A DNA stretch of 20,000 bases, taken from the IMG/VR virus record IMGVR_UViG_3300038441_002670, one strand, 5' to 3'. This document shows positions 4,031 to 19,469 of the stretch, piece by piece. The notes under the pieces are model-generated. The model was not told where the DNA came from and did no database searches. It was given only the letters and a program-made list of their open reading frames with translations. Both the position numbers and the translations under genes were made by a program. Every line of letters begins with the position of its first letter. Position 1 is the first letter of the stretch. Source of the DNA: an uncultured virus (IMG/VR IMGVR_UViG_3300038441_002670). Taxonomy: Duplodnaviria > Heunggongvirae > Uroviricota > Caudoviricetes.

Positions 4031-4058
4031 GAGCCCCTCCCTCCCTGCATAAGCATGA

Positions 4059-5115: not shown

Positions 5116-5133
5116 CCTGTACGGAGGTCTGCG

Positions 5134-5355: not shown

Positions 5356-5379
5356 ACGCTCGACACAGGGAGGTGTCTG

Positions 5380-5598: not shown

Positions 5599-5604
5599 CG
5601 TCCC

Positions 5605-5760
5605 ATGCTGCCAACCCTCGCGCTGCTGGTGCTGCTGGTGGGCGTCGCTGGATACTTCGGGACGCGCTACCGTCAGGCCCACGACCGCCATGGCCTTACC
5701 GGGCGTGCGGCCCTGCGCTGGATGCTGACGGGTGTCGTGCGGCCTACGGACGACTGTTGA
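5605..5760 (+). CDS. Small single-TM protein (51 aa)
   Basis: Manual translation MLPTLALLVLLVGVAGYFGTRYRQAHDRHGLTGRAALRWMLTGVVRPTDDC*. Starts 6 bp after the previous stop; below the ORF-track cutoff. Confidence 0.55.
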   Translation: MLPTLALLVLLVGVAGYFGTRYRQAHDRHGLTGRAALRWMLTGVVRPTDDC

Positions 5761-5854
5761 CGGTCTCTCCGGTCTCTCCGCTCTTTCCCTTTCTATTTTA
5801 CTATGAGTAAATAACACTTCGCCTTTCGCATAAATCACTTCATGCATTTTTTAT

Positions 5855-5882
5855 TTGCACATTGCGAGAAATGGTGTATGCT
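5855..5882 (+). promoter_or_regulatory. Putative sigma70-type promoter for the XRE/transfer region
   Basis: TTGCAC-16 bp-TATGCT in an AT-rich intergenic stretch. Palindrome TTTACT-ATG-AGTAAA lies upstream at 5797-5811. Confidence 0.4.
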
Positions 5883-5955
5883 CTGCTTAAACGTGGGAAA
5901 GTTCGTATCCTTTTCTCGTAGCTCACCGACACATCACTGTGGAAAGACGGGAGGG

Positions 5956-6420
5956 ATGACCGAACCGCAAGTACATGATCCGCGTGATGAGATCGCTCGG
6001 CGGCTCGATGACCTGCGCGAGGCCAAGGGGCTCTCGATGTCCGAGGTCGCCAGCCTGGCAGGTGTCAAAATTGGCGTCCTCTCCAATCTCCATACGGGGA
6101 GGCGAAAGGGACGCAATATGAAATTGGGGGTGGCGGCGGCTGTCTGTCGTGCGCTCGGGGCCAGGGTCGGTCGGGACCTGCTCGGAGAAGAGGAGTTGCC
6201 GCTACCGCCGGGGTTCGACCTCGGGAAGATGACCCCGACGGAGAAAGACAATTTACTGATTCGCCTGATGGCGGAGGTGCTGCGTCAGGGGCTGCAAATT
6301 CCCCCGACGCTCGTGCCGAGGAGCAATGATGCCGACGAAACCGGACGACGAACACGTGCTCGCGCTACCCCCAGATCCCGAAGGCGAGGCCGAGGAAGCA
6401 CGGGTGATGGAAATGTCTGA
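5956..6420 (+). CDS. XRE-family HTH regulator heading the transfer region
   Basis: IARRLDDLREAKGLSMSEVASLAGVKIGVLSNLHTGRR...AAVCRALG. GGGAGG RBS. Confidence 0.85.
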   Translation: MTEPQVHDPRDEIARRLDDLREAKGLSMSEVASLAGVKIGVLSNLHTGRRKGRNMKLGVAAAVCRALGARVGRDLLGEEELPLPPGFDLGKMTPTEKDNLLIRLMAEVLRQGLQIPPTLVPRSNDADETGRRTRARATPRSRRRGRGSTGDGNV

Positions 6421-6488
6421 GGAAGAGTTCGCCAGGTACATGACCGAAGGGGAGGATGGTCTCGCCTTCGGCGCGTGAATCGACAGGA

Positions 6489-6579
6489 AGCACGGGGAGG
6501 GAGGCTACCAACCGTCTCCCCATGCTGGAGGTCTCGCAGCCCATCTCCCTTGAAAGGAGACTGTGTGGCTAGTGTACCA
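6489..6579 (+). promoter_or_regulatory. Structured two-hairpin leader of traF with a putative antisense -10
   Basis: Hairpin 6489-6526 (AGCAcGGGGAG.../...CTCCCCaTGCT, loop CTACCAA). TCTCC pairs with the GGAGA RBS and AGCC pairs with GGCT at the start codon. Minus-strand TGgTACACT at 6579-6571. Confidence 0.45.
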
Positions 6580-7089
6580 TCTTTTTCCTCCATACCACTA
6601 GCCAGTCGTGCGCGCACGACCCGCCCTCAGCGCAGCACCCTGCTCCTCGCGGGCTTCCTGTGCCTCGTTGTGGGCAGTACGCGCTGGCTGCGCTTCAACG
6701 TCAGCCACAGCCTCCCCTACGGTCTCTATCGCCTGCATGCGGTGCCTCCCACGCTGACCCGGGGCATGCTCGTCCTCATGCCAGTACCGCCGAGCGTACA
6801 GCATGTCTGGTCGCGTTGGGTGCCGCTCCTCAAGCCTATCGCCGGGGTGCCGGGGGACCGTATTGAGCTGCTCGGTGAGGACCTCCGCATTCATGACGTG
6901 TCTTTTGGTCCGGTGCTTGTGCACGCGCACGGCCAGGCGCTCCCCCAGATACGAGGTAGTTGGATCGTGGCAGACGATGAAATCTTTGTCGCGTCCACCG
7001 TCCCGCGCAGTCTGGACGGTCGCTATTTCGGTTGTACCAAGGTGGCGGCGCTTACGGCGGTCGCTACCCCTTTGCTGACCTGGAGGTAA
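6565..7089 (+). CDS. traF: Conjugative transfer S26 peptidase (pilin maturase/cyclase)
   Basis: FNVSHSLPYGLY (catalytic Ser), LLKPIAGVPGD (catalytic Lys), SLDGRYFG, and an N-terminal TM. AAAGGAG RBS before GTG 6565. Confidence 0.92.
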   Translation: MASVPSFSSIPLASRARTTRPQRSTLLLAGFLCLVVGSTRWLRFNVSHSLPYGLYRLHAVPPTLTRGMLVLMPVPPSVQHVWSRWVPLLKPIAGVPGDRIELLGEDLRIHDVSFGPVLVHAHGQALPQIRGSWIVADDEIFVASTVPRSLDGRYFGCTKVAALTAVATPLLTWR

Positions 7090-7094
7090 CGTCA

Positions 7095-7298
7095 ATGGCT
7101 CATCCATTCCTACGCCAACGCGCCGCGCACTTTGTCGCGTGGTGCATGAGCAAGGCCTTTACCCGTGACCAGGACCCGTCGCGGGACCCTCGGCAGGAGC
7201 CTGGTGCGCTGGAGCGGTTCCAGGATCGCCGCTCTGAGGCCGAGCGTCAACGCGAGATGGTGACTCGTCACTACCACGGGGGGCGCTATGGCCGATAG
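7095..7298 (+). CDS. Hypothetical protein (67 aa)
   Basis: GGAGG RBS, 5 bp after the traF stop. MAHPFLRQRAAHFVAWCMSKAF... Confidence 0.6.
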   Translation: MAHPFLRQRAAHFVAWCMSKAFTRDQDPSRDPRQEPGALERFQDRRSEAERQREMVTRHYHGGRYGR

Positions 7299-7509
7299 CT
7301 TAGGCGAAACCTTTGCCGCCTTTCATACGCGCTGGGAGGCGCTCTTTGCGAGTCAGCAGCAGCACTGGCAGGAGTACGACGCTGCGAATCCGACCCTCCT
7401 TGATACGCTGGAAGGGTTGCAAGAGCGTATGGACGACCTGAGCCACAGCACGGACGACCAGCAGCACGAGCGTGATCAGGACCGCGATCAGGGCGTGGCG
7501 TATGGGTGA
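7288..7509 (+). CDS. Acidic helical protein (73 aa) with a relaxase-like C-terminal tail
   Basis: Overlaps both neighbours. Ends QQHERDQDRDQGVAYG. Confidence 0.65.
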   Translation: MADSLGETFAAFHTRWEALFASQQQHWQEYDAANPTLLDTLEGLQERMDDLSHSTDDQQHERDQDRDQGVAYG

Positions 7510-7789
7510 GCGCTATATTGTGGCTACCGATAGGGACGGGATGATCCTGGAGAAACTGGCGAACATCGAAGACGCCCTCGCCACGCTGGGGCCACTCCTC
7601 ACCAAGATTATTGCGCACCTCGAAGCGCAGACGAAGCCGCCGGTGGTGGCGGTGGCGTCCTACGACGATCTGTATACACCGATTGAGGCCGGACCGCCGG
7701 AAGGGGAGCAGGTGGCCGAGGTCTTCGGTCCTGTTTTGCCACAACAGGGCGGCTGGCGCCGCCTATTTCCTGTGAGGAAAAACGTATGA
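7502..7789 (+). CDS. Hypothetical protein (95 aa)
   Basis: Coupled to both neighbours. Amphipathic helix ILEKLANIEDALATLGPLLTKIIAHLE. Confidence 0.65.
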   Translation: MGERYIVATDRDGMILEKLANIEDALATLGPLLTKIIAHLEAQTKPPVVAVASYDDLYTPIEAGPPEGEQVAEVFGPVLPQQGGWRRLFPVRKNV

Positions 7790-7938
7790 CATCCTGGCTT
7801 ATGACTCTCAGCCGTGCAGACGTCGATGTGCTCATCGTGGTCGTCTCGACGGTGCTTCTCCTGTGTTCGTTGGGGACGATCAGTCTCCTCGCGCTGTGCG
7901 TGCGTCAGTCCCCGCGCACGAGTGAGCCGTCGATATGA
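7786..7938 (+). CDS. Small single-TM protein (50 aa)
   Basis: Manual translation MTSWLMTLSRADVDVLIVVVSTVLLLCSLGTISLLALCVRQSPRTSEPSI*. ATGA overlaps at both ends; GAGGA RBS. Confidence 0.65.
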   Translation: MTSWLMTLSRADVDVLIVVVSTVLLLCSLGTISLLALCVRQSPRTSEPSI

Positions 7939-8141
7939 AAACCTGGCTCAGTGGTCTCAGCCAAGCCGCCATCGATGGGCTCCTGGTGGGCTTCTGGGCG
8001 GTGCTGTTCCTGGGGTGTGTGCTCGTCTTCGGCTTCGTGGCATGGCGCAAGAGGGCTTCGAAGCCCGTGCGTCCTCGTATGGTGCACACGGCCTCGACCT
8101 TTTGCCGCAACCAGCAGGGACGCGAGTATGAACGCGCTTGA
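7935..8141 (+). CDS. Small single-TM protein (68 aa), probable paralog of 7786-7938
   Basis: MKTWLSGLSQAAIDGLLVGFWAVLFLGCVLVFGFVAWRKR. ATGA overlap. Confidence 0.65.
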   Translation: MKTWLSGLSQAAIDGLLVGFWAVLFLGCVLVFGFVAWRKRASKPVRPRMVHTASTFCRNQQGREYERA

Positions 8142-9630
8142 CCTTATCATGGATCTGGGGCGCTGGGGGCAAACCCATCAGACGGCGGTGATGGCAGGAG
8201 CCGCCGCGATGCCGCTCCTGCTGGGTGCCATCGCCCTGCTCCGCCGCACGCCCTATGGGGGCCTGACGACCTATGGTTCAGGGCGCTGGGCCACACTGCG
8301 GGAAGCGCGCAAGGCCGGGCTCTGTGCAGAATGGGGCGTGGTACTGGGACGCTTGCAGGGACAACTCCTCATCGACCAGAGCGAGACGCATGTATTACTA
8401 GTAGCGCCAACCCGTTCAGGAAAAGGCATAGGCGTTATTATACCAACTCTCCTCTCCTGGCTTGGCAGTGCGCTCGTAACAGATCCCAAGGACGGAGAGA
8501 ACTACGACGTGACGTGTAGGTGGCGCAGCCGTGTGGCGCAGAATCAGATTGCCTACTTTACGCCGTGCCGCTCGCCGCATACGTGCATCAATGTTGTGGA
8601 CACGATCCGGCTGCACACACCCCAGGAATTTGGCGATGCGCTGACCATTGCCCAGAGCTTGACCGCGCCGGAAAAGCTGGCACGGGAATCAGGCACGTCG
8701 CTGCATTTTCGAGAACTCGCGGCGCTGCTCCTCACCGCGAGTCTGCTCCATGTGGCGTACAGCGCCTCGCACGCCTCGTTGGCTGGACTGTGGCACTTTC
8801 TGACGCAGCAGCACGCCTCGCTCGCCGCCTGTCTCACGACGCTGAGCAAGACCGCGCATCACTCCTCGGGGGTGCATCAAGCGATCGTGTCGCTCACGGC
8901 GGCGATCCGCAATATTACCGGGGACCGCGAACTCGGGAGTGTCTGGAGCACGGCGATTCGCCCACTGGTGTTGTACAACGACCCCCTCGTGGCCCGCAGT
9001 ACCGACACGTCCACGTTTCCCCTGGAGGCGCTTCAGTACGGGCTGATGCCGCTGTCGCTGTATCTCGTGGCGCCGTCGCCCCGGGTGTTGACGCGCCTGC
9101 ATCCGCTCTACCGGGTGATTCTCGATGTCGCCATGGCGCGACTCATGGATCACAAGGTCCGCACCTGGCAGCACCCGCTGCTGGTGTGCGCTGACGAGCT
9201 GCCAGCCCATGGCTATGTGCACGCGATGGACCAGGGCGCCGCCGATATGGCGGGGTACGGCATGAAAGGGCTCTTTGTGGCGCAGGACATCGAGCAAATT
9301 GAGGAGGTCTATGGCGAGAAGAATAACCTGTGGGGGAATACGGATGTGAAGGTGTTTCACACCCCCACGAACGACACGACGGCGCACAGGATTGCTGAGA
9401 GATTGATGGGCAAAGGGACCGTCGAGAACCCGGTCTCGCAACAGCAAGAGGGGCTGCTGGGACGGGGCTCGACCTCGTATGGCCGGGTGGCGCGCTCCCA
9501 GATGACCCATGATGAAGTCATGGAGATGCCCGCAGAGCACCAGATTCTGCGGGTAAAGGGGCTGAAGCCTGTGCTGGCGCACAAACTCGATTACCGGATA
9601 GACCCCGCCTTTCGCGGGAAGCTTGGATGA
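8128..9630 (+). CDS. virD4: Type IV coupling protein VirD4/TraG (500 aa)
   Basis: TYGSGRWAT, HVLLVAPTRSGKGIGVIIPTLLSW (Walker A), VTDPKDGEN, VCADELP (Walker B), MAGYGMK..VAQDIEQIEEVYG. Confidence 0.95.
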   Translation: MNALDLIMDLGRWGQTHQTAVMAGAAAMPLLLGAIALLRRTPYGGLTTYGSGRWATLREARKAGLCAEWGVVLGRLQGQLLIDQSETHVLLVAPTRSGKGIGVIIPTLLSWLGSALVTDPKDGENYDVTCRWRSRVAQNQIAYFTPCRSPHTCINVVDTIRLHTPQEFGDALTIAQSLTAPEKLARESGTSLHFRELAALLLTASLLHVAYSASHASLAGLWHFLTQQHASLAACLTTLSKTAHHSSGVHQAIVSLTAAIRNITGDRELGSVWSTAIRPLVLYNDPLVARSTDTSTFPLEALQYGLMPLSLYLVAPSPRVLTRLHPLYRVILDVAMARLMDHKVRTWQHPLLVCADELPAHGYVHAMDQGAADMAGYGMKGLFVAQDIEQIEEVYGEKNNLWGNTDVKVFHTPTNDTTAHRIAERLMGKGTVENPVSQQQEGLLGRGSTSYGRVARSQMTHDEVMEMPAEHQILRVKGLKPVLAHKLDYRIDPAFRGKLG

Positions 9631-9642
9631 AAGGAGCGAATC

Positions 9643-9948
9643 ATGCGACGACGATGGACGGTGGTTGGCACGCTGGTACTGACGATGCTGCTCCTTCAGG
9701 GGCGGGCGCACGCGGCAGCGATGGGGATTCCGCTCGATGGCTTTCTCCAGCAATTCCAGCTCTTTGTGGTGGGTTTGGGCCTGGTGATGGGGCTGGTCGG
9801 ACTCACCGGGTACGTGGGCAGTTTGTTCGACAATCCCTTCAGCAACATCCTGGCGGGGAGTGTCGGGTTTTTTAGCAAGGCCGGGCTTCTCGGCGGCGGC
9901 ACGATTCTGCTGGGGCTGGTTGGCCTCACAGGCGGAGCGGTCGTATGA
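9643..9948 (+). CDS. trbC: Major pilin TrbC/VirB2
   Basis: Signal peptide ending AHA, then GIPLD, two hydrophobic helices and C-terminal GGAVV as in TraF-processed P-type pilins. Lies before trbD; AAAGGAG RBS. Confidence 0.8.
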   Translation: MRRRWTVVGTLVLTMLLLQGRAHAAAMGIPLDGFLQQFQLFVVGLGLVMGLVGLTGYVGSLFDNPFSNILAGSVGFFSKAGLLGGGTILLGLVGLTGGAVV

Positions 9949-10253
9949 CCGGGGCACGCGAGCGTACGAGCGGGGCAGAAGGCTATGAGGCGGAGATTAA
10001 ACGCTCCATGTGGGAGCGGATCACGAGTTTTGGCGTGCCGCGTCTCTGGGCTGGGCTCTGGGGGGCGCTCTGCCTCTACCTGGGGCTCCTCATGCTCTAC
10101 GCCTTCGGGATGGCGATGGTGCTCATCCCGGCCCTGCTGTGGATGTGCGGCCATGGGGCGCTGATGGCGCTGACGCTCTACGACCCGCACTGGGACGACA
10201 TCTTTCTGGCGCAACTGACGCGGCGCTACCGCGCCTATTACGACGCAGGATGA
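9945..10253 (+). CDS. trbD: TrbD/VirB3 inner-membrane protein
   Basis: GYEAEIKRSMWERITSFGVPR, two TMs, then YDPHWDDIF. Position between pilin and VirB4. Confidence 0.85.
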   Translation: MTGARERTSGAEGYEAEIKRSMWERITSFGVPRLWAGLWGALCLYLGLLMLYAFGMAMVLIPALLWMCGHGALMALTLYDPHWDDIFLAQLTRRYRAYYDAG

Positions 10254-10263
10254 GAGGAGACAC

Positions 10264-10485
10264 ATGCACCAGATAACGGTTCCCACATGGTTTCTGCTGC
10301 TGGGTTTGTACAACATCATCACGGGGCTGTGTGATGCGCTGTTCTGGGGGCCGCAGCCCATGACGCCCTTGCGCAGTCTGGTGAGCGGCCTCGTGATGGT
10401 CGTGCTGAGTGGCGTGGGGGTCCTGTGCAGGATGGGGTGGCAGTGGATGCGCCACGGGAGGCACATGCGCCATGCCGGTTTATGA
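10264..10485 (+). CDS. Unknown two-TM protein inserted between trbD and trbE
   Basis: GAGAGGAG RBS, two hydrophobic segments, basic C-tail. Overlaps the trbE start. Confidence 0.65.
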   Translation: MHQITVPTWFLLLGLYNIITGLCDALFWGPQPMTPLRSLVSGLVMVVLSGVGVLCRMGWQWMRHGRHMRHAGL

Positions 10486-13153
10486 GGAATACTATGCGCG
10501 ACGTGGCCCCCGCCCGGCGCTGGTGTCTGAGGTCATTCCGTGGCGTGGGATGATCGCCCCTGGTGTGCTCCTCCAGAAGTACCGCCATGGGCTCCAGCGC
10601 TCCTATGCTGTGCGTGGGCCGGATGTGCAGGGCGAAAGCCCCGAAGTGCAAGGCGCGCTCATGCTCCGCGCCAACGAGGCCTTCAAACGCTTAGGCGGAC
10701 GCTGGATGCTCCAGAGTGAAGCCCAGCGCCAGCGCGTGACCACACTCCCGCAGGTCGCGTGGCCTGATCCCGTGTTGCAGCTCCTCGACGACGAACACCG
10801 GGCGCAGCTCATCCAGGACCCTGGGAGTCGAGAGACGGTGTACTACGCCACGCTGACCTGGTGGCCTCCGCCCACGAGTACCCGGCGTGCGGCGCGGCTC
10901 ATCATGTCGGGCCAGCGCCCGGACCTGGAGCGGCAGGCGGCAGAGAGCCTGGACGAGGCGCAGCGTGTGTCGCTCCTCGAATTTGTGCAGCAAGCCGATG
11001 CCTTTATGGACCTCCTCAAAGGCATGCTGGCGGTGTGTCGCCCGCTCAGTATCGAGGAAACGCTCACCTACTTGCACAACTGCGTGTCGGATCGCTGGTA
11101 TGCGCTCGGGCCAATGGCGTTTTATCAGGACCTCGACAGCCAACTCTGTGACACGCCGTTTGCGGGGGGCTGGTATCCGCAGTTGGGCGACTGGCATGTC
11201 CGCACCTGCTCGATCCTGGGCTACCCCGCGCATTCCTCGGTGGGGATCGTGCGCCACCTCGACGCGGCGAATCTGGACTATCGCTGGTGTACGCGCTGGG
11301 TCGGCCTCGAAAAGCACCTCCAGGCCAGTCTGCTGCGCAAAACCCAAGGGGCGTGGATTGGGCAGGAAAAGTCGCTCGCCGGGCGTCTGGCGGAAAACTG
11401 GTCGGGGCAGGCACAGCGCATTGTCAATACCGACGCCACGAACAAAGCCGAGGAGGTCGATGCGGCGAGACAGGAAGTGGGCGCGGACATTGTGGCGTAT
11501 GGCGAGTTCACCAGTACCGTGACGGTGTGGGACCCTGATCCGCAGGAGGCCGAGGCCAAGCTGCGCCATGTCATGCAGACGCTCGCGGGACAAGGCTTCA
11601 CCGCCACAGCAGAGCGGCAACACGCCACCGCGGCCTGGCTCTCCTCACACCCCGGCAACCGCCTTGATAATGTGCACCGCTCCCACCATCACAGCCTCTT
11701 TCTGGCGCATGTCTCGCCTGGCGTCACAGCGGCGTGGCCTGGCCCGGACCGCGATGCGCATTTCCAGGCAGGGCCATGGTTTTACGTGCACACGGAGCAC
11801 AATACGCTCTTTCGCGTCATTAACCATATCCGTGACGTTGGGCATTTTCTTATACTTGGAAGTACTGGTTCTGGTAAGAGTACATTCGGGAATTTCCTCC
11901 GTGCCTGCTGGATGCAGTACCCCAATGCGCAAGCGAAAGTGTTTGACCTCGATGGGCACGCGCGGTTGCTCACCTACTTGCTCGGGGGCACGTGGCACGA
12001 TCTGGGGAGCAGTACGCTCCGCTTTCAGCCGCTGCGCTACAGTGATGATCCGGAGCGCTTTGGCACGATGCTGAGCTGGCTGGTGGATCTCTGCGAGGAC
12101 GCCGGGCAGGACCAGGGGCTGCTCACCCAGCAGTACCTGTCGGGGGGCTTACGGAAGCTGGCGCTCCGTCCGCTGGTGGAGCGGACGTTTAGCGGGTTGC
12201 TCCGGGTGTTTTCGGAGCCCCCACCGGGCCAGCACGCGGCGTTTAACCGGCAGCGGGTCAAAGTCGATGGCACGGGCGTGGCGCACCTCGACACCACCCT
12301 CAGCGAGCTTGACCGCGTGCAACAGCACGTGCGCTGGGTGCTGCAACGCTATGCCGACGGGGGCGACTATGGCGGCATTTTTGATGGCACGGAGGATGTC
12401 CTGGAGGCGCATCCGGTGCAGACCTTTGAGTTGCGCCACCTCCTGGCACAGCCACGGCTCGTGGGGCCGGTGCTGGGCTATGTCTTTCCCGAGGTCGAGC
12501 GGCAGATGCGGACGACGCACCCCATGCTGCTCCTCCTCGACGATGCCGCCGTGGCCTGGCTCACGCCCCGGCAGGAGGCCAGTGAGACGCTGGACATCCG
12601 CAAGAAGCTGGAGAATCGCTGTCGGGATTGGCTCATGACCACCCGCAAAAAGAACGTGAGCCTGGGCTTTGCCACGCACAGCCTGAGTCAGGTGTTTAGT
12701 AGTGCCCTGGGGCCGCTGCTGGAAGAGGGCTGTCCGTCGCGGTTCTTTCTGCCCATGACGGCGGCCCTGGAGCCCAACATTGCGGAGATTTTTCTGCGCC
12801 TGGGGCTCACCGAGAACGCGCTACGTACGATCGCCACGAGTCGCCCGCAACGCGACGTCTATTATGTCTGTAAGGAACTGGGGCAGCGGAGCTTTAGCCT
12901 GCCGCTGGGACCGCTCGGCGTGCGGTGCCTGGCGAGTAATCGGGTGGAAGATCATGCCCTGATGGATCGTCTCTTGGCGCAGGAAGGTCGTGAAGGCTTT
13001 GCAGCGGCCTTCCTGCGCGCCCATGGCTTTACCAAGGAGGCCGACTATGTGGAAGCGATGCACAGAGACGCCGGAACAAGTAGAGGCGCAGTGCCAGCGG
13101 AATCAGGCGCGGCTTGGGATGCGCTGGCAGGGGCGGGAGCGCTCTTGGGATGA
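10472..13153 (+). CDS. trbE: VirB4/TrbE ATPase (893 aa)
   Basis: TrbE N-terminus (VIPWRGMIAPGVLLQK...RGPD), DVGHFLILGSTGSGKS (Walker A), VFDLDG, LLLLDDA (variant Walker B), WLMTTRKKNVSLGFATHS, CPSRFFLP. Confidence 0.95.
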   Translation: MPVYEEYYARRGPRPALVSEVIPWRGMIAPGVLLQKYRHGLQRSYAVRGPDVQGESPEVQGALMLRANEAFKRLGGRWMLQSEAQRQRVTTLPQVAWPDPVLQLLDDEHRAQLIQDPGSRETVYYATLTWWPPPTSTRRAARLIMSGQRPDLERQAAESLDEAQRVSLLEFVQQADAFMDLLKGMLAVCRPLSIEETLTYLHNCVSDRWYALGPMAFYQDLDSQLCDTPFAGGWYPQLGDWHVRTCSILGYPAHSSVGIVRHLDAANLDYRWCTRWVGLEKHLQASLLRKTQGAWIGQEKSLAGRLAENWSGQAQRIVNTDATNKAEEVDAARQEVGADIVAYGEFTSTVTVWDPDPQEAEAKLRHVMQTLAGQGFTATAERQHATAAWLSSHPGNRLDNVHRSHHHSLFLAHVSPGVTAAWPGPDRDAHFQAGPWFYVHTEHNTLFRVINHIRDVGHFLILGSTGSGKSTFGNFLRACWMQYPNAQAKVFDLDGHARLLTYLLGGTWHDLGSSTLRFQPLRYSDDPERFGTMLSWLVDLCEDAGQDQGLLTQQYLSGGLRKLALRPLVERTFSGLLRVFSEPPPGQHAAFNRQRVKVDGTGVAHLDTTLSELDRVQQHVRWVLQRYADGGDYGGIFDGTEDVLEAHPVQTFELRHLLAQPRLVGPVLGYVFPEVERQMRTTHPMLLLLDDAAVAWLTPRQEASETLDIRKKLENRCRDWLMTTRKKNVSLGFATHSLSQVFSSALGPLLEEGCPSRFFLPMTAALEPNIAEIFLRLGLTENALRTIATSRPQRDVYYVCKELGQRSFSLPLGPLGVRCLASNRVEDHALMDRLLAQEGREGFAAAFLRAHGFTKEADYVEAMHRDAGTSRGAVPAESGAAWDALAGAGALLG

Positions 13154-13370
13154 GCGGTGTGGCGACTATGGCCCGGCCCTTCCACTCCTCCCGCTCGTCT
13201 GTACCGGGCTCATGCTCGCGGTCGTCGTGATGCTGGCCCTGGCGCTTGGGGGCTGCCTGGAATATGGCTACAAGATGAACGAGCTCTATGGCCTGAATTG
13301 TCGGCCTGAAGCCTTGCAAGATGGGAAGTGTGTGGCGACAAATTCCGCCACGAAGGAGGCCAAGAAATGA
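13047..13370 (+). CDS. Small putative lipoprotein (VirB7/TrbK-like slot); start uncertain
   Basis: AAGGAGG RBS before ATG 13047. The hydrophobic stretch ends in lipobox LGGC, followed by a ~38-aa tail with two more Cys. ATGA-coupled to trbJ. Confidence 0.55.
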   Translation: MWKRCTETPEQVEAQCQRNQARLGMRWQGRERSWDERCGDYGPALPLLPLVCTGLMLAVVVMLALALGGCLEYGYKMNELYGLNCRPEALQDGKCVATNSATKEAKK

Positions 13371-14059
13371 GACTCCGCACGGGGCTGGTCATTGGGGTGT
13401 TGGTTGCGACTCCGCTTCCTAGCAGTGCCCAGATACTCGGGACCGGAATTGTACCTGTTACCGAGGTCGGACCTCAACTCGGCCAAAATACAATAACTGC
13501 GGTGCAGAGTGTCATCACGGCGGCACAGACGACGCTCATCCAACTCAACCAGATCCTGGACCTCACTCCTGTGAAATCTCTGACTGCGGCGGACGGCATT
13601 CTCGAGGACATGGAACTCCTCTGCGACCTCATCAAGCAGACCGAGGCGATCAACACCGACCTCCAGAGCCTGGAGGCGCAGATGGCCGCGCTCCTCGATG
13701 TCCAGCAAGCCCCCCGGACCCGGCCAGACCTGCAACGCCGTATGGACGAACTGAAGCAGATGCGCCAGCAAGCCCGCGTGTATGCGATGCGGACGCAGAC
13801 CTTGATTAAGACGCTCCTGCGCACCGGGGATCACATGAAGGCTCTCCTCACGGACGTGACGAAGCTGGTGGGGAACCTTTCCGGACAGCAACGGTTGGCC
13901 GAGCTACAGACGACGATCCACAAAACGCTGGCCGTGCAGGCGGCGCAGGCGGCGGCCTGGCAGCGCATGGATACGCTCGACAAGATGAGCGATGTGCTCG
14001 TGGTCGAAAGTATCACGCTCATTGAACGCAGCCGCATGGACGGCTGGCCGCGCTGGTAG
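13367..14059 (+). CDS. trbJ: TrbJ/VirB5-like minor pilin
   Basis: Signal peptide, QNTITAVQS...QLNQI, Gln-rich coiled coils, GNLSGQQ. Directly upstream of trbL; AAGGAGG RBS. Confidence 0.75.
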   Translation: MRLRTGLVIGVLVATPLPSSAQILGTGIVPVTEVGPQLGQNTITAVQSVITAAQTTLIQLNQILDLTPVKSLTAADGILEDMELLCDLIKQTEAINTDLQSLEAQMAALLDVQQAPRTRPDLQRRMDELKQMRQQARVYAMRTQTLIKTLLRTGDHMKALLTDVTKLVGNLSGQQRLAELQTTIHKTLAVQAAQAAAWQRMDTLDKMSDVLVVESITLIERSRMDGWPRW

Positions 14060-14072
14060 CAAAGGAGCCCGT

Positions 14073-15014
14073 ATGCCGCTCACCGTCGAGTTGGTCGATA
14101 CGATCACCCAGGGCTTCCTGGGTGCCCTGGAGATGGGCGCCACGAGTTTGTCGCGCTTCGCCCTGCCGATCCTGGCGGTCTGTGCGACCATTAGTTTTTA
14201 CCGGGAGTATGGCGCCATGGTCATGCAAGGCGGGGCCGCGCTCGGGGATGCGCTGGCGAGTGTGGTGCTGATCTTTGTGGGCATTGGCGGCTACTACTGG
14301 TTTCTCGTCACCCTCATGCCGCTCTCCACCGCAGCGCTCGCCACCGTGGTCGAGTGGGGGCTCACGCCGGGCGGGGGGGCCCTCACGGCTGATCTTATCC
14401 GCAAGCCGTCGATTATCCTCGATGTCGGCTTTAAGGCTGCCGGGGGTATCGCGGAATTTGATACGTGGTTCAAAGCCATCAAGAGCACGGTGAAAATGGC
14501 GTCGAATCCTTCGGACCTCCTGACGTGGTGGTTTATCGTCCTGAGCTTTCTGGCCATTACCGCGCACCACATGATGATGCTCATTGAATATCAACTGGCG
14601 GTCATGTGTGCCGCCGTCCTCATTCCCTGGGGCGTCTGGCGCTCCACCGCCGGGGTGGCGGAGTTTGCCCTGGGTTGGCTCACGGGTGGCCTCATTCGTG
14701 CGCTCGTGGGGACGGCCATGGTGGGCATCGCCTTGCCGCTGTTCTCGCTCCTCCAGGTGGAAGACAAAGGGTTTTTTACCCTGTATGAAAACCTCGTGCT
14801 GGTGGGCGGGTCCTTTGTGTTTATGGTGCTCTGTCTCGTGATCCCCGCCCGGGCGGCGCGCATGGCGGGACAGGCCTCGCTGGGGCTCACCGGGAGCACG
14901 CTCATGTCAGGGGCGATGACCCTTGGCCGGTTTGCCACGATGGGCACCAACCTGATGCGTACAGGCGCGGGTGTCATCCGTGGCACCTCCTCACTGCTGG
15001 GAGGCCGAGCATGA
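14073..15014 (+). CDS. trbL: TrbL/VirB6 polytopic inner-membrane protein
   Basis: Multiple TMs, PSIILDVGFKAA, LIEYQL...LIPWG...AE, IPARAA. AAAGGAG RBS. Confidence 0.88.
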   Translation: MPLTVELVDTITQGFLGALEMGATSLSRFALPILAVCATISFYREYGAMVMQGGAALGDALASVVLIFVGIGGYYWFLVTLMPLSTAALATVVEWGLTPGGGALTADLIRKPSIILDVGFKAAGGIAEFDTWFKAIKSTVKMASNPSDLLTWWFIVLSFLAITAHHMMMLIEYQLAVMCAAVLIPWGVWRSTAGVAEFALGWLTGGLIRALVGTAMVGIALPLFSLLQVEDKGFFTLYENLVLVGGSFVFMVLCLVIPARAARMAGQASLGLTGSTLMSGAMTLGRFATMGTNLMRTGAGVIRGTSSLLGGRA

Positions 15015-15748
15015 GCGACCTCCAGACCACTACGAGCCAGCTCCCGTTGAACGGGCATGCCGTGCCTCCTGCGTGGCAGGGCGTACCCCTCGATACCTTG
15101 GAGCGTATGGAACTCGCCTACCAGGAAATCCAGCGCCGCGATGCGCAGGCGGAAGCCCGGGCGGCGCGCAAGGATCGCCTCGTGCATTTCCTCTGTGGCC
15201 TCCTGGCGGTCTTCGCGGGGCTCCTCGTGTGGATGGCGGTGGACAAGCAGCACATCAAGACGTTTGTCCAGACCGTGCAGGTGACACCGGAGGGCACGCT
15301 GGTGCAACTCGGCGTGCCGCAAAATCTCTACGACTACCAGCCGACCGAGGGGGCCTACCTGGACATGCTGGCGCAGTGGGTGCGCTGGACGCGCTGGCGC
15401 GGGGGCGATGAGCGCATGGCGCGGGTGCAGTGGGCGTGGGCCTATCGGCACGCCTGCGGGATGGCGCACAAACTGCTGAAGGCGGCGGAAGACCGGGAGA
15501 AGCCGTTTAAGCCATCAGGCAGGCGCGTGGCGGTGGAGGTCAAAAGCGTCACGAAGATTGCCGCGCCGGAGAGTTACCAGGTGCTGTGGGAGGAAACTGC
15601 CACGGAACCCAATGCGCCCGCGTCCAAGTCGCAACTCTGGACGGGGACGTATACCGTGGGACGTCGCACCCTGACCTCGATGGACGATGTGCTCGATAAT
15701 CGGCTGGGTATCTGTGTGGCGGCCTACGAAGCCTCTGCTCAGCCCTAG
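15011..15748 (+). CDS. trbF: TrbF/VirB8
   Basis: Single N-terminal TM, FVQTVQV, LAQWVRWTR, WAWAY, SYQVLWEE, NRLGICV. Confidence 0.9.
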   Translation: MSDLQTTTSQLPLNGHAVPPAWQGVPLDTLERMELAYQEIQRRDAQAEARAARKDRLVHFLCGLLAVFAGLLVWMAVDKQHIKTFVQTVQVTPEGTLVQLGVPQNLYDYQPTEGAYLDMLAQWVRWTRWRGGDERMARVQWAWAYRHACGMAHKLLKAAEDREKPFKPSGRRVAVEVKSVTKIAAPESYQVLWEETATEPNAPASKSQLWTGTYTVGRRTLTSMDDVLDNRLGICVAAYEASAQP

Positions 15749-15758
15749 GGAGGGTCCT

Positions 15759-16718
15759 ATGCGCTGCTGGTATTTGCTGCTCGTGGTGGGACTGCTCGGT
15801 GGTTGTCCGTCGCCAGAGCCCCCACCGCCACCCGTGCCGCCCCCAGCCGAGGACCTCTCGACCTGGACCGTGCCAGTGCTGGTGCAGCCCGAGCGCTCTG
15901 TCCCGCGTCCGCAGGCGGTGCGCCCTGCGACGCTCCCCGTCGGGGCCGCTGAGAAAGTGCTGGCCTACAAGCCGGGCGTGGTGGTCGAGGTGTCGGTCGC
16001 TCCAGGGGCGCCCCTCGATATCGTCTTCGAGGAAGGGGAGCAAGTGCGGCAGATTGTGGACGGCGATCGTGCCCCCGCCGCCGAGGGCCAGCATCGCCGC
16101 TGGGAGGTGAAAGAAGGCGCGGACGGCGCAGGCCCCACGCTGAGGCCGCACGTGTTTGTCACGACGACCGAGCCGGGCCTGGTGAACGGCCTGACGATTA
16201 CGACGACGCGGCGCACGTATCTCGTCACCTGCAAGAGCGTAGCGCACACCCCGGTTCGCGTGCTGCGCTGGCTCTATGCCCCAGACAGCCGTCCCCCGAC
16301 GCCAGAGGCGCCTACCGACGCGCCCGGGCTCCTGCCGCATCCCGAGCAGCCCATGCGCTACCACATCGGCTATCGCCTGGAGGCGCAGGGGCGCATGCCC
16401 GACTGGACCCCGCGTGGCCTGTTTGACGACGGCAAGAAAATGTACATCGTGTATCCCGAGGTGACCCTCTTTGGGACCGTGCCGCTCGTGCGGAAGGTGG
16501 GCCCCAATGGCCCCCAACTCATCAATGCCCGGCAGTACCTCAGCGTGGTCATTCTTGATGAACTCGCAGGGCGTTTGGAGCTTCGCGTGGGCCTGGGTGA
16601 GACCGCAGAGGTTGTGACGATCTCGCGCGGCAATTTACGGACCATTGACTGTCCCAGCCATCCTGAGTGTCCACAATGGCCAGCGGCGGCGGCGGTCCTG
16701 GCCGGGGGCACGCCATGA
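15759..16718 (+). CDS. trbG: TrbG/VirB9 outer-membrane core protein (lipoprotein signal)
   Basis: Lipobox LGGC, YKPG.V.EV..APG...DIVFEEGE, LTITTTRRTY, WTPRGLFDDGKKMYI. Confidence 0.92.
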   Translation: MRCWYLLLVVGLLGGCPSPEPPPPPVPPPAEDLSTWTVPVLVQPERSVPRPQAVRPATLPVGAAEKVLAYKPGVVVEVSVAPGAPLDIVFEEGEQVRQIVDGDRAPAAEGQHRRWEVKEGADGAGPTLRPHVFVTTTEPGLVNGLTITTTRRTYLVTCKSVAHTPVRVLRWLYAPDSRPPTPEAPTDAPGLLPHPEQPMRYHIGYRLEAQGRMPDWTPRGLFDDGKKMYIVYPEVTLFGTVPLVRKVGPNGPQLINARQYLSVVILDELAGRLELRVGLGETAEVVTISRGNLRTIDCPSHPECPQWPAAAAVLAGGTP

Positions 16719-17860
16719 ACCCGGCCACGTATACCCACACGGCGTCGGCCCCGCGCGTGGTGCACCTGCGGGCGGGTCGGCTCCTCCTCCTCGCCTTCCT
16801 CGTGCTGGCGCTCATGGCAGCGGTCGCGTTCTGGCTGGTGTCCCGACCGAAGCCGCCCTCCTCGCAGCCGCTGCCCGAGGCCACGACGACCAATCCCGCA
16901 TGGATGAAACAGGCGACCGCGTATCTCCCCGAGGACCCGTTCCAGGTCAAAGCGGCGGTCGCTGCGCCACCACCCACGCCGGATCGCAGCGAGGAGGTGC
17001 TCCACGCGCTCGCTGGGCTGCGCACCGAGTCGCAGGCGACGCGGGAGGCCCTGGCGAAGATGCAGCAAGACAGTCATGCGTTGCGGCAAGACGTCGAAGC
17101 GCTGAAGCAACGGCCCGCGCCGCTGCCCCCGCCACGCACCCCGCCACCGCCTCCAGCACCAGCGAAGACGCCCACTCCGCCCAGCAAGCCGGGGGGCATG
17201 CTCTTTATCACGCACGATCTCAAGGAAGTGCCACCGCCACCGGCCCGGCCCGAGTACACGCTGGCACCCGGGGCTACGAAACTACCCTGTATTATTGAAT
17301 CTGCCATGAATAGCGACGTACCCGGCTACTTTACGGCCAAGGTCACGGCCAATGTCTTCGACACCGCCACCGGTCGCCATCTCCTGGTCCCGCAGGGCTC
17401 GACCATCCTGGGCCATGACCAGACAGGGAGTCTTGTCTATGGCAATGAGCGCATGGATACCGTGAGTCTCAAGCTCGCGCTCCCCGATGGTCGGACGGTC
17501 GATCTGGGACGAGCCCCGGTGACGGATCAGCGAGGCATCGCCGGTGTGACCCAGCGGGTTTCTCAACACTACGGTAGATTACTTGCCGCTGTGCTGATTC
17601 AGGGCGCCCTGCGGGGTGGCGCAACTGCGGTGACCACGGCGGCGGCGGGGGCATCAGGGGCCAGTGCCATCGTGTCCGGGGTGGCGACGCAGGGCTCCCA
17701 GACAGGGACTACAGTTACCGGCCCCCTCCTAAGCACTCGCCCAACGATAGAGGTGGATAGCGGCTATCTCTGCCAGACGATTCTCCTAGAGCCGCTGCGG
17801 CTGCCCGCGATGTGGCAAGACGGCGAACCGCGTGAACCTGTGCAGACAAAGAAGAGGTGA
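16715..17860 (+). CDS. trbI: TrbI/VirB10
   Basis: N-terminal TM, Pro-rich linker, AMNSDVPG..TAKVTANVFDTATGRHLLVPQGSTILG, D..GIAG, RPTIEV..G. Confidence 0.93.
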   Translation: MNPATYTHTASAPRVVHLRAGRLLLLAFLVLALMAAVAFWLVSRPKPPSSQPLPEATTTNPAWMKQATAYLPEDPFQVKAAVAAPPPTPDRSEEVLHALAGLRTESQATREALAKMQQDSHALRQDVEALKQRPAPLPPPRTPPPPPAPAKTPTPPSKPGGMLFITHDLKEVPPPPARPEYTLAPGATKLPCIIESAMNSDVPGYFTAKVTANVFDTATGRHLLVPQGSTILGHDQTGSLVYGNERMDTVSLKLALPDGRTVDLGRAPVTDQRGIAGVTQRVSQHYGRLLAAVLIQGALRGGATAVTTAAAGASGASAIVSGVATQGSQTGTTVTGPLLSTRPTIEVDSGYLCQTILLEPLRLPAMWQDGEPREPVQTKKR

Positions 17861-17863
17861 ACC

Positions 17864-18235
17864 ATGACAAGCACTGACCGTGTAACGAAGCTCGAACGTG
17901 CCGCAGAGAAAGCGCGTAGAGAGAAAGCGAAGCTCGAAGAGATCGAGCGCCTGGCGAAAGAGAGCCGGGCGGCTCAGCGCAAGACGATCCTCCAGGCCGA
18001 GGCGGCGGTCCGGGAAGAGACCCGGAAGGCCACCAACAAACGCCGCTACTACGTGGGCTTTCTGGCGGAGGAAGCCGGGCTGTTTACGTGGAGCAACGCC
18101 GACCTTCAGAAAATCTTTCTGGCCGTCGCACGCCTGGGGGAGACGCCCAGTCCTGGGGCGGTCCTAGAGAGCCTGCTCCTCGATGTTCCTGCTGGCAGTG
18201 TCGGTATCACCTCAGAGGGTATGGCAACGCCATAG
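17864..18235 (+). CDS. TraD/MobS-like relaxosome accessory protein
   Basis: Coiled coil followed by RKATNKRRYYVGFLAEEAGL, resembling the R..RTR.LI.LG.LV.KAGL motif of the TraD/TraC accessory proteins of MobQ systems. Adjacent to oriT and relaxase. Confidence 0.7.
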   Translation: MTSTDRVTKLERAAEKARREKAKLEEIERLAKESRAAQRKTILQAEAAVREETRKATNKRRYYVGFLAEEAGLFTWSNADLQKIFLAVARLGETPSPGAVLESLLLDVPAGSVGITSEGMATP

Positions 18236-18250
18236 CCTTAACGCGCCAGG
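18216..18250 (+). other. Putative MobQ-type origin of transfer (oriT)
   Basis: AGGGTATGGC-AAC-GCCATAGCCT (10-bp arms, one mismatch, 3-nt loop) directly followed by TAACGCG^CC. Same architecture as the RSF1010 oriT (IR then TAAATGCG^CCCT). About 145 bp upstream of the relaxase. Confidence 0.65.
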
Positions 18251-18392
18251 TTTTCTTTTCCCACACGACCAAAGGGAGAGAACTCCGAACTCCGCTCCTA
18301 GAGACTTCTGAGGAATCTGACCGAAGGGAAGTGACGAAGAAGGGACCAGCGGTAGCGAAAGTTTGCATCCAATGGGGAGGAGGTAGGGCCTC

Positions 18393-19469
18393 GTGGTCCA
18401 TTTTTATATGCGCCGGGATGTCTACAAAAGTGGGGGACAGCAGGCGGTCGGACGGGTGGCCTACATCACCCGCGAACCTGTGCGCAGTCGGGCGGCAGAG
18501 CAGATCGCGTATGTCAGTGGCGCACGAGAAGATTGCGTCGTGAGTGCGAGCCTCAACCTGCCTACCTGGTGTGCGAACGATCCCTATGTCTACTTTGCGG
18601 CGGCGGAGAAACATGAGGGGGTCGGGTGGGTGGCCTTTGAGGAACTCAAGATAGGCCTCCCCGTCGAGTTGACGCATGAGCAAAACATCGCCCTCATCCG
18701 GGACATGGTGCACACGATTGCCGGGGAGCGTTTGCCCATCACCTACGCCTTTCATGCGCCACGGACGATGGATGGGAGCCAGGAACAACCGCATGTGCAT
18801 GTGATCTTCTCCCGGCGACAAACTGATGGGATTGACCGGAGTGCGGCGCAGCATTTTCGCAAATATAACGCGGCGCATCCTGAGCAGGGCGGTGCCCAGA
18901 AAGATCCCTTCTTTGCGGAGCGGCTCGTCCAGCGCCATCTGCGGGTGATGCTGACGGATGTGGTCAATCTCCGTCTGGAGCAGCAGGGCACAGTTGTGCG
19001 GGTAGACCCGCGCTCCTTGCGTGACCGGGGGATTGACCGTGCGCCGGAACCGAAGCTCTTTCCCAAAGAGAGTCGAGAGTACCGGGAGGAGCGCAAGGTC
19101 AGTGCCACAATGGCCGAGGTCCTCGCCATCCGCCAGACGCGCGCCACGCAGCCGCCCCGCGAGCAGAACAACGCCCGGCAGTATTGGGAACAGCGCAAGG
19201 GAGTGCTGGGCCTCACCCGCGACATGCCCCACGAGCAGAAGCTCGCCCAGGTGCTCCTGCGGCGCCATGGCACGATCGAGCGCGTGCCTGAGCGCTACCG
19301 CCCCCTCGTGGCACCGACCACGCACCAGGCCACTACGCGCACGACAGACTTGGTGCAGCAGCTCAAGCGGCTGACGCGACGACTCGCCCCGACACTGGAC
19401 GACAGTGCGACGCAGGGACGGCTCGCCATTCGGCTGCATGAGGAACGCGGGCAGGGGGTCAGTTGGTGA
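18393..19469 (+). CDS. mobA: MobQ-family (MobA/MobL) relaxase, no fused primase/helicase
   Basis: Motif I AVGRVAYITRE (Tyr), motif II FAAAEKHE...EELKIGLPVELT, motif III YAFHAP...QPHVHVIFSRR, plus VDPRSLRDRGIDR. GGAGGAGG RBS. Confidence 0.93.
   Translation: MVHFYMRRDVYKSGGQQAVGRVAYITREPVRSRAAEQIAYVSGAREDCVVSASLNLPTWCANDPYVYFAAAEKHEGVGWVAFEELKIGLPVELTHEQNIALIRDMVHTIAGERLPITYAFHAPRTMDGSQEQPHVHVIFSRRQTDGIDRSAAQHFRKYNAAHPEQGGAQKDPFFAERLVQRHLRVMLTDVVNLRLEQQGTVVRVDPRSLRDRGIDRAPEPKLFPKESREYREERKVSATMAEVLAIRQTRATQPPREQNNARQYWEQRKGVLGLTRDMPHEQKLAQVLLRRHGTIERVPERYRPLVAPTTHQATTRTTDLVQQLKRLTRRLAPTLDDSATQGRLAIRLHEERGQGVSW

What the first reader, a model, noticed from the sequence alone, without database searches (positions are those of the whole stretch)
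11843..11884. A/T-ending synonymous codon patch precisely on the VirB4 Walker A
Seen: codons for HFLILGSTGSGKST are cat ttt ctt ata ctt gga agt act ggt tct ggt aag agt aca. 13 of 14 end in A/T in a gene otherwise dominated by G/C-ending codons, while the protein motif is conserved. Inference: selection for nucleotide divergence at a site whose protein sequence cannot change. Possible causes are escape from a homing endonuclease or intein (P-loops are favoured intein sites), escape from CRISPR spacers hitting conserved sequence, or patch recombination with a low-GC donor.
Basis: partly seen in the sequence, partly recalled or inferred. Interest (0 to 1): 0.7.

Follow-up and report, generated by a model that had tools for sequence, protein, structure and literature searches.

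The report
A/T-recoded P-loops in conjugation ATPases
Two conjugation ATPase genes of a GC-rich soil plasmid-like element spell their ATP-binding loops almost wholly in A/T-ending codons, and in one of them the patch is centred on the spot where relatives carry a self-splicing intein with a DNA-cutting enzyme, so the recoding may protect against that enzyme.

Summary
In trbE/virB4 (10409-13153, +), codons HFLILGSTGSGKST (11843-11884) are 13/14 A/T-ending, against a gene GC3 of 0.756. This is the lowest 14-codon window in the gene. Only 1 of 20,000 synonymous shuffles reached it anywhere in the gene, and none at this site.

Three new findings:
1. A 68%-identical homolog (P0016) and seven more distant TrbE/VirB4 proteins carry a Hint + LAGLIDADG intein at ...TG|C...HN|SGKS. 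That maps to window 11869|11870, inside the patch.
2. The neighbouring traG/virD4 gene has a second patch on its own Walker A (8389-8448). It is 16/20 A/T-ending, matched in 2 of 20,000 shuffles.
3. Both patches are confined to a small clade (window, L001, L064). Of the other relatives, 47 trbE loci show 1-6/15 A/T-ending codons, and 9 of 10 traG loci show 2-5/20 (L066, 11/20).

Intein-occupied P-loop sites are not A/T-rich, which argues against a co-conversion footprint. Synonymous turnover in the patches is raised.

Best reading (about 0.4): DNA-level recoding that escapes P-loop-specific homing endonucleases. This is unproven. No traG intein was found among its relatives, and empty helicase sites are not recoded.

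The parts
10409..13153 (+). trbE/virB4 type IV secretion ATPase gene. The likely true start is the ATG at 10472, because relatives begin MxVYEEY.
   Evidence: NCBIfam TrbE PRK13873 E = 5.7e-183 (610 bits, below the 1020 cut-off); VirB4_CagE TIGR00929 E = 6e-62. Pfam CagE_TrbE_VirB 27.2 bits, above the cut-off of 21. 228 homologs found, best 90% identical.
11843..11884 (+). The reported A/T-ending synonymous patch: beta-strand plus Walker A, HFLILGSTGSGKST. 13/14 codons end in A/T.
   Evidence: Weaker enrichment continues upstream to about 11825 (cat, cgt, gtt).
11869..11870 (+). Position homologous to the intein insertion point of relatives, between Gly GGT 11867-11869 and Ser TCT 11870-11872. 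The patch runs 27 nt upstream and 15 nt downstream of it. The site is empty here, and the +1 residue is Ser, which permits splicing.
   Evidence: BLASTP of the window protein against P0016 breaks at ...LGATG / SGKST... with a 357-aa insert C...HN. All 8 intein-bearing TrbE show the same C-junction, HN|SGKS, and Cys1 is invariant in their alignment.
7951..9630 (+). traG/virD4 coupling-protein gene. The likely start is the ATG at 8125, giving 501 aa; relatives are about 500 aa.
   Evidence: NCBIfam IncP-type TraG E = 8.5e-87. P0390 is 91% identical over 100% of the 8125-9630 product.
8389..8448 (+). Second A/T-ending patch, on the TraG Walker A, HVLLVAPTRSGKGIGVIIPT. 16/20 codons end in A/T in a gene with GC3 0.74. 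The equivalent R|S junction lies at 8415|8416.
   Evidence: The gene-wide 20-codon minimum was <=4 in 2 of 20,000 synonymous shuffles, and the lowest count at the site was 8. Among the lowest-GC 60-nt stretches of the operon (0.43).
6475..19469 (+). P-type conjugative transfer operon that holds both genes: traF (6475-7089), traG, two small ORFs in the trbC/trbD position (9643-9948, 9945-10253), trbE, trbL (13992-15014), trbF (15011-15748), trbG (15687-16718), trbI (16667-17860), and a MobQ/TraA-like relaxase (18393-19469).
   Evidence: NCBIfam hits, all below the curated cut-offs, so this is a divergent system. The two small ORFs have no family hit; they are named by position only, which is an inference.

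Best explanation
The two patches are DNA-level recodings of the P-loop-coding segments of the element's two type IV secretion (T4SS) ATPases. They most likely make those segments poor substrates for sequence-specific nucleases that recognise the usual G/C-ending spelling of P-loops, chiefly the LAGLIDADG homing endonucleases carried by P-loop inteins.

Shown:
- The patches are non-random.
- They are confined to the two Walker A segments.
- They are shared by a small clade.
- They turn over fast at synonymous sites.
- In trbE, the patch is centred on a documented intein insertion point.

Inferred:
- An endonuclease resident in a competing element or recipient cell cuts the G/C-spelled site of an incoming element.
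- Variants whose site was rewritten survive. The rewriting could come from accumulated changes or, more economically, from break repair copied from a diverged A/T-rich template.
- A/T endings follow because they are the only synonymous alternative at two-fold codons and two of three alternatives at four-fold codons when the target is G/C-ending.
For: 1. Significance. trbE: 1 of 20,000 shuffles. traG: 2 of 20,000. Within traG and trbE, every 14-codon window with <=4 G/C-ending codons lies on the Walker A.
2. Intein at the site. P0016 carries Hom_end_hint (57.5 bits) and LAGLIDADG_3 (27.3 bits), both above cut-off, inserted at TG|C...HN|SGKS. Seven further TrbE/VirB4 proteins and locus L085 have it at the same site.
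3. The intein family is P-loop-specific across many host genes. 78 of 80 viral-contig loci have a called insertion in a Walker A, and 57 distinct sites have the same G|[STC]GK position. A coupling protein can also be hit: TraD of the IncC plasmid pKAZ5 carries one after GSGK.
4. Occupied sites are not A/T-rich. Flank GC3 is 0.68 against extein 0.65 over 68 sites, and 0.80 against 0.79 in 39 GC-rich hosts. L085 has flank 0.71 against 0.69. The window's spelling is therefore unlike the sites these inteins sit in within GC-rich DNA.
5. Not a conserved codon feature. 47 other trbE loci show 1-6/15 A/T-ending codons, and 9 of 10 other traG loci show 2-5/20 (L066, 11/20). Only L001 (9/15 and 18/20) and L064 (10/20) share it. 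Three GC-rich plasmid coupling-protein genes are ordinary.
6. Raised synonymous turnover. trbE patch 9/12 against 0.37. traG patch 9/18, 11/16 and 12/18 against 0.36. Columns where all three close relatives differ: 5/16 inside against 21/415 outside (Fisher p = 0.0015). This includes Ser TCA/AGT/TCT and Arg CGT/AGA family switches.
7. The element shows other nuclease-avoidance signs. GCCGGC occurs 0 times against 20.5 +/- 4.6 expected, and RCCGGY 10 times against 44 +/- 6.9.
Against: - No cleavage or resistance was measured.
- No intein-bearing TraG was found: 0 of 120 relatives, and 0 of the 150 best representatives by junction motif, with the 8 longest also checked by Pfam.
- Only 1 of 120 listed trbE relatives has the intein, so the pressure looks low, and most unrecoded relatives are nevertheless intein-free.
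- No intein-bearing variant of this allele appeared in four soil runs (no joints; contigs only).
- In a helicase family heavily used by the same inteins, 61 distinct empty sites show only 0-7/14 A/T-ending codons, so recoding is not a general response.
- Distance of the 18-nt core from the consensus of occupied GC-rich sites does not single out the window (7 mismatches; relatives 3-7).
- Occupied sites in A/T-rich hosts are spelled much like the window's, so the recoding would not protect against every endonuclease of the family.
- The patches (42 and 60 nt) are longer than a typical LAGLIDADG footprint (recalled).
- A/T-ending codons inside the traG patch change no faster than A/T-ending codons elsewhere (6/10 against 47/87, p = 1.0). 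This fits decay after a single past event as well as ongoing selection.
Confidence: 0.4

Rival explanations
1. Short gene-conversion patches copied from a low-GC homologous T4SS (or another low-GC P-loop gene), with no nuclease involved. The P-loops are the only segments conserved enough for such exchange. The patches have since been drifting back to high GC.
For: All the changes go towards A/T. Two conservative residue changes also go towards A/T-rich codons (Val to Ile ATA, Ala to Ser AGT, compared with the consensus of relatives). The 20-nt core is identical to the P-loop of a Bacillus cereus plasmid VirB4-like gene. The serine codon-family switches look like replacement rather than point mutation. 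The decay rate of A/T codons inside the patch equals that outside.
Against: No donor was found. The best PLSDB matches are 20-28 nt at E = 0.007-4, and identity falls to 24/42 across the patch. A low-GC donor and a high-GC recipient share little nucleotide identity at the patch edges to start an exchange (inference). It has to happen at two genes, and the excess of three-way different columns suggests more than one event.
Confidence: 0.2
2. Selection for local A/T-richness or rare codons for expression reasons: a translational pause while the beta1-P-loop-alpha1 unit folds, weaker local mRNA structure, or a binding site for an A/T-seeking nucleoid protein.
For: Both patches are clusters of the genes' rarest codons. 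They sit on the same structural element in two different ATPases.
Against: The feature is not conserved among orthologs of similar GC content: 47 of 48 other trbE loci and 7 of 12 other traG loci lack it. Three GC-rich plasmid coupling-protein genes and a VirB11 gene also lack it. Synonymous sites in the patch change faster, not slower. There is no promoter-like site in either patch and no Rfam match.
Confidence: 0.15
3. Footprint of past intein occupancy: A/T-rich flanks were co-converted when an intein homed in from a low-GC donor, and were kept after precise loss of the intein.
For: Inteins of this family have lower GC3 than their hosts (0.54 against 0.65). 2 of the 39 GC-rich hosts (L133, L153) do carry A/T-rich flanks beside an A/T-rich intein. 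The occupied-site consensus in A/T-rich hosts resembles the window's spelling.
Against: Occupied sites in GC-rich hosts are normally G/C-spelled. Precise loss that keeps both flanks has no known route for inteins (recalled), and it would have to happen twice. No TraG intein was seen in 270 relatives.
Confidence: 0.1
4. Escape from another sequence-directed defence aimed at conserved plasmid DNA, such as CRISPR spacers or Argonaute guides.
For: The patch lengths (42-60 nt) are closer to spacer length than to an endonuclease site. The element shows restriction-site avoidance.
Against: Not tested here. One or two changes are enough for CRISPR escape, and nothing ties spacers to P-loops in particular (inference). 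Restriction avoidance would also need only one change per site, and CCGG and GCWGC are common in the window.
Confidence: 0.08
5. Chance or assembly artefact.
For: None beyond the small size of the patch.
Against: Shuffle tests. An identical contig in another run. A second allele from another metagenome (L001) has the traG patch at 18/20.
Confidence: 0.02

Closest known systems
P-loop inteins with LAGLIDADG homing endonucleases (DnaB-b, MCM-a, RFC-a type sites). VirB4 inteins are listed in Novikova et al. 2016, PMC4760082 (passages read: Table 3 gives 5 VirB4 inteins in Firmicutes and Proteobacteria).
   Same: Relatives of this trbE carry such an intein in the Walker A, at the position homologous to window 11869|11870.
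   Different: The window's own gene has no intein. What is unusual is the synonymous spelling of the empty site. The passages read do not give the VirB4 insertion point.
Invasion-resistant empty alleles in the homing cycle, for example mcm alleles with Pro after the MCM-d site (PMC10643990, passages read).
   Same: An empty target that differs from occupied ones in a way that could block invasion. In the helicase family studied here, 51 of 61 distinct empty sites have Ala or Phe at +1, where all occupied sites have Ser, Thr or Cys.
   Different: Those cases change the protein. Here the residues that matter are kept (+1 Ser) and only the DNA spelling changes, over 14-20 codons and in two genes.
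Co-conversion tracts beside homing introns and inteins (recalled: the plant cox1 intron literature).
   Same: A short tract of foreign-looking sequence centred on a homing site.
   Different: No mobile element is present, and occupied sites of this intein family in GC-rich hosts are not A/T-rich.
Restriction-site avoidance in broad-host-range conjugative plasmids (recalled: RP4 / IncP).
   Same: Synonymous-site sculpting of plasmid DNA by nucleases. This window lacks GCCGGC and five other 6-bp palindromes.
   Different: That avoidance removes single short sites across the whole plasmid. It does not produce a 42-60 nt recoded block on a protein motif.
Conserved rare-codon clusters (recalled).
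   Same: A cluster of the gene's rarest codons at a defined structural element.
   Different: Not conserved among orthologs.

Membership tests
TrbE/VirB4 T4SS ATPase | Family profile match and Walker A | tested here: met
   Pfam CagE_TrbE_VirB scores 27.2 against a cut-off of 21. NCBIfam TrbE and VirB4 models match at E = 5.7e-183 and 6e-62 but below their curated cut-offs. GSTGSGKST is present.
TrbE/VirB4 T4SS ATPase | Operon context with other mating-pair-formation genes | tested here: met
   traF, traG, trbL, trbF, trbG, trbI and a relaxase lie on the same strand.
TraG/VirD4 coupling protein | Family profile match and Walker A APTRSGKG | tested here: met
   NCBIfam IncP-type TraG matches at E = 8.5e-87, below the cut-off. 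Relatives carry PF02534, PF10412 and PF12696. Motif found.
Empty homing site of a P-loop intein | Homologs carry an intein at the homologous position | tested here: met
   For trbE: P0016, P0125-P0127, P0161, P0185, P0201, P0209 and L085. For traG: not met, with 0 of 120 and 0 of 150 relatives.
Empty homing site of a P-loop intein | +1 residue able to act as the splicing nucleophile (Ser, Thr or Cys) | tested here: met
   Ser at 11870-11872 (trbE) and at 8416-8418 (traG).
Endonuclease-resistant (immune) allele | The cognate endonuclease cuts the common spelling but not this one | not testable with these tools
   Needs a cleavage or plasmid-protection assay.
Endonuclease-resistant (immune) allele | The site differs from occupied or cognate sites at recognised positions | tested here: inconclusive
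   Over 14 codons the window has GC3 0.07, against 0.80 in occupied sites of GC-rich hosts. Over the 18-nt core it has 7 mismatches, within the 3-7 range of relatives. DNA of the closest intein-bearing allele (P0016) could not be obtained.
Endonuclease-resistant (immune) allele | An intein-bearing allele co-occurs in the same populations | tested here: not met
   No joints at 11869|11870 in four soil runs. These are contigs only, which drop rare variants, so the evidence is weak.
Co-conversion footprint of a lost intein | Occupied alleles carry the same A/T-rich flanks | tested here: not met
   Flank GC3 is 0.80 against 0.79 in 39 GC-rich hosts, with 2 exceptions. L085 has 0.71.
Conserved rare-codon or pause cluster | Conserved among orthologs with similar codon usage | tested here: not met
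   47 of 48 other trbE loci show 1-6/15. 9 of 12 other traG loci show 2-5/20.

The most novel reading that the evidence does not exclude
P-loop-specific intein endonucleases act like a restriction barrier between competing conjugative elements. One lineage answered by rewriting the DNA of both of its T4SS ATPase P-loops without changing the motif. The rewriting probably happened in one step per site, by repairing the endonuclease-made break from a diverged A/T-rich template. If so, this is a natural synonymous 'immunised' target of the kind engineered for gene-drive rescue.
Probability: 0.25. Interest if true: 0.8.

Novelty: new variant of a known kind. Interest (0 to 1): 0.6.

Why it matters
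If the recoding is anti-homing immunity, it shows three things. Inteins and their endonucleases impose measurable selection on plasmids. Synonymous sites of the most conserved protein motifs can record that conflict. And wholesale silent recoding, the trick used to make drive-resistant rescue genes, also arises in nature. It would also give a simple sequence signature for finding past endonuclease pressure in metagenomes: a local GC3 collapse on an intein hot-spot motif. If the cause is something else, two independent P-loops recoded in the same clade still need an explanation.

Tried and rejected
- The window's genome is not held.
- A single-protein scan of genome contigs found nothing. The alignment scan gave only distant loci of 33-44% identity.
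- PLSDB holds no close relative of the gene. It holds no intein-bearing TrbE: 0 of 1,472 records cover >=80% of P0016.
- Donor searches for both patches gave only short P-loop look-alikes. The Bacillus 20-nt identity does not extend beyond the core.
- The Methylocystis, Ketogulonicigenium and Rhizobium coupling-protein genes that matched the traG patch have ordinary P-loops: 5/20, 7/20 and 9/20.
- The intein sequence found nothing in the 84 trbE loci.
- Laying four soil runs showed no joint at the insertion point. In run X3 a roughly 90%-identical traG contig stops aligning at 8411 and goes on with a mostly G/C-ending P-loop. All of this is contig data only.
- Core-mismatch scoring against the occupied-site consensus did not discriminate.
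- Restriction avoidance as the cause of the patches was rejected: CCGG (115) and GCWGC (106) are common in the window.
- Rfam found no match, and there is no promoter-like site in either patch.
- The earlier-findings index had nothing.
- Literature searches found no report of natural multi-codon synonymous recoding of an intein site. Only listings, abstracts and the passages cited were read. Supplementary tables of PMC4760082, which may list VirB4 insertion points, were not opened.
- CRISPR-spacer matching was not attempted.
Full report
**What is there.** The finding lies in ORF 10409-13153 (+), a divergent TrbE/VirB4 type IV secretion ATPase.
- Pfam CagE_TrbE_VirB scores above its cut-off. 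The NCBIfam TrbE and VirB4 models give strong matches below their curated cut-offs.
- The gene sits in a P-type transfer operon with traF, traG/virD4, trbL, trbF, trbG, trbI and a MobQ-like relaxase.
- No genome is held for the window.
- The gene is present in 13 soil-metagenome runs. Its relatives are almost all metagenomic.

- It is the single lowest 14-codon window in the gene.
- Permuting synonymous codons 20,000 times gave a window this low anywhere in the gene once. At this site the count never fell below 4 G/C-ending codons.
- A contig from a different run is identical across the patch.

**An intein sits exactly here in relatives.**
- Among the 120 listed relatives, one (P0016, 68% identical, 1,221 aa) has Hint and LAGLIDADG domains.
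- Alignment to the window protein breaks at LGATG / SGKST, with a 357-residue insert that begins with Cys and ends with His-Asn.
- Searching with that insert found seven more TrbE/VirB4 proteins, two of them named by NCBI as Acidithiobacillus TrbE. All have the junction HN|SGKS.
- A viral-contig scan added a TrbE locus with DNA, L085.
- The homologous point in the window is 11869|11870. The patch spans 27 nt upstream and 15 nt downstream of it.
- VirB4 inteins are in print as a count: 5, in Table 3 of PMC4760082 (passages read).

**A second patch.**
- A scan of the operon's genes for GC3 dips showed that, besides trbE, only traF (near its uncertain 5' end) and traG fall to 3 G/C-ending codons in 14. 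Two ORFs outside the operon (orf3167, orf5842) also have windows of <=4.
- The traG dip is on its Walker A, HVLLVAPTRSGKGIGVIIPT (8389-8448). It is 16 of 20 A/T-ending in a gene with GC3 0.74.
- Only 2 of 20,000 shuffles reach it anywhere in the gene.
- So both P-loop ATPases of the element are recoded, each at its P-loop and nowhere else.

**Distribution.**
- I obtained DNA for 48 other trbE P-loops and 12 other traG P-loops.
- trbE: the closest relative, L001 (88% identical), has 9/15. The other 47 have 1-6/15.
- traG: L001 has 18/20, L064 has 10/20, and the distant L066 has 11/20. The other nine have 2-5/20.
- Three GC-rich plasmid coupling-protein genes that weakly matched the traG patch are ordinary.
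- The feature therefore belongs to a small clade. It is not a property of the protein family or of GC-rich hosts.

**Footprint or avoidance?**
- The same intein family occupies Walker A motifs of many genes in viral contigs (80 loci).
- Over 68 non-duplicate occupied sites, the 14 flanking codons are slightly richer in G/C endings than the rest of the host gene (0.68 against 0.65, Wilcoxon p = 0.02). In the 39 GC-rich hosts the two are equal (0.80 against 0.79). L085 has 0.71 against 0.69.
- The inteins themselves are poorer in G/C endings (0.54).
- Two GC-rich hosts (L133, L153) do have A/T-rich flanks, so co-conversion from low-GC donors happens but is uncommon.
- On balance this argues against the patches being tracts left by a departed intein. 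That reading would also need two precise losses.

**Turnover.**
- Between the window and L001, 37% of identical-residue codons differ gene-wide in both genes.
- In the trbE patch 9 of 12 differ (p = 0.009).
- In the traG patch the three close relatives differ at 9/18, 11/16 and 12/18 (p = 0.17, 0.009, 0.009).
- Columns in which all three carry different codons are 5 of 16 inside the patch and 21 of 415 outside (p = 0.0015). They include serine and arginine codon-family switches.
- As a caution, A/T-ending codons inside the patch change no more often than A/T-ending codons elsewhere (6/10 against 47/87). Part of the raised divergence is what an A/T-rich tract drifting back to high GC would show.

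**Results that weaken the endonuclease reading.**
- No intein-bearing TraG was found among 120 close clusters. None was found among the 150 best 50%-identity representatives by junction motif, and the eight longest were also checked by Pfam.
- A coupling protein of another family, TraD of the IncC plasmid pKAZ5, does carry a P-loop intein, inserted after GSGK.
- Only one trbE relative in 120 is occupied.
- No occupied variant of this allele appeared in four soil runs (contigs only).
- In the SF2 helicase family that hosts most of these inteins, 61 distinct empty sites have 0-7 of 14 A/T endings in genes with GC3 0.63-0.91. Recoding is therefore not a general answer to these inteins. Instead, 51 of the 61 carry Ala or Phe at +1, which cannot support splicing.
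- The 18-nt core does not stand out by mismatches to the occupied-site consensus.
- Occupied sites in A/T-rich hosts are spelled much like the window's.

**Other rivals.**
- No low-GC donor was found.
- No RNA family or promoter-like site lies in the patches.
- The window lacks GCCGGC (0 against 20.5 +/- 4.6) and is depleted in RCCGGY (10 against 44 +/- 6.9). Five other 6-bp palindromes are also absent. This shows that nucleases have shaped the element's synonymous sites. It cannot explain a 14-20-codon block, because one change per site would be enough.

**Verdict.**
It remains an inference.
- I put escape from P-loop-specific homing endonucleases at about 0.4. That figure includes the variant in which the break was repaired from a diverged A/T-rich template.
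- Plain low-GC patch conversion: 0.2. An expression-related need for A/T or rare codons: 0.15. A footprint of lost inteins: 0.1. Other sequence-directed defences: 0.08.
- The searches made found no report of a multi-codon silent recoding of an intein site.

Noticed in passing
window 8389-8448: Second A/T-ending synonymous patch, on the Walker A of traG/virD4 (16/20 codons). It is shared by the closest relatives, L001 (18/20) and L064 (10/20).
   Followed up: yes
whole window: GCCGGC is absent (0 against 20.5 +/- 4.6 expected) and RCCGGY is depleted (10 against 44 +/- 6.9). CTGCAG, TCGCGA, GGATCC, GGTACC and GTCGAC are also absent. This looks like restriction-site avoidance, as recalled for broad-host-range plasmids.
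   Followed up: partly
L169-L248 (viral contigs, SF2 helicase family): Of 61 distinct intein-free P-loop sites, 45 have Ala and 6 have Phe at the +1 position, where every intein-occupied allele has Ser, Thr or Cys. Only 10 empty sites have Ser or Thr. This may be protein-level immunity to intein invasion, or simply the family's usual residue.
   Followed up: partly
L165 1355-4327 (plasmid pKAZ5, KR827394.1): The annotated 991-aa TraD coupling protein of this IncC plasmid holds an intein-like insert with LAGLIDADG motifs directly after the Walker A GSGK, ending in HN|T. Five other enterobacterial plasmids gave the same match.
   Followed up: partly
L085-L164: One family of inteins (40-57% identical) occupies the Walker A of many unrelated host genes, at two positions: G|[STC]GK and GK|[ST]. 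Their GC3 is on average lower than that of the host gene (0.54 against 0.65).
   Followed up: partly
window 8314-8411 versus a contig of run X3: A roughly 90%-identical traG variant in another soil sample stops aligning in the middle of the traG patch and continues with a mostly G/C-ending P-loop. Both spellings therefore co-exist among close relatives in soil.
   Followed up: no
window 631-690, 3546-3605, 5797-5856: Very low-GC stretches (0.20-0.37) outside the transfer genes. They are probably intergenic or regulatory. The ORFs in 1-6400 have no NCBIfam match.
   Followed up: no
window 10409-10471: The long ORF begins 21 codons upstream of the Met at which relatives start (MPVYEEYY, 10472). 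The annotated start is probably 10472. Similarly, traG probably starts at 8125, not 7951.
   Followed up: partly
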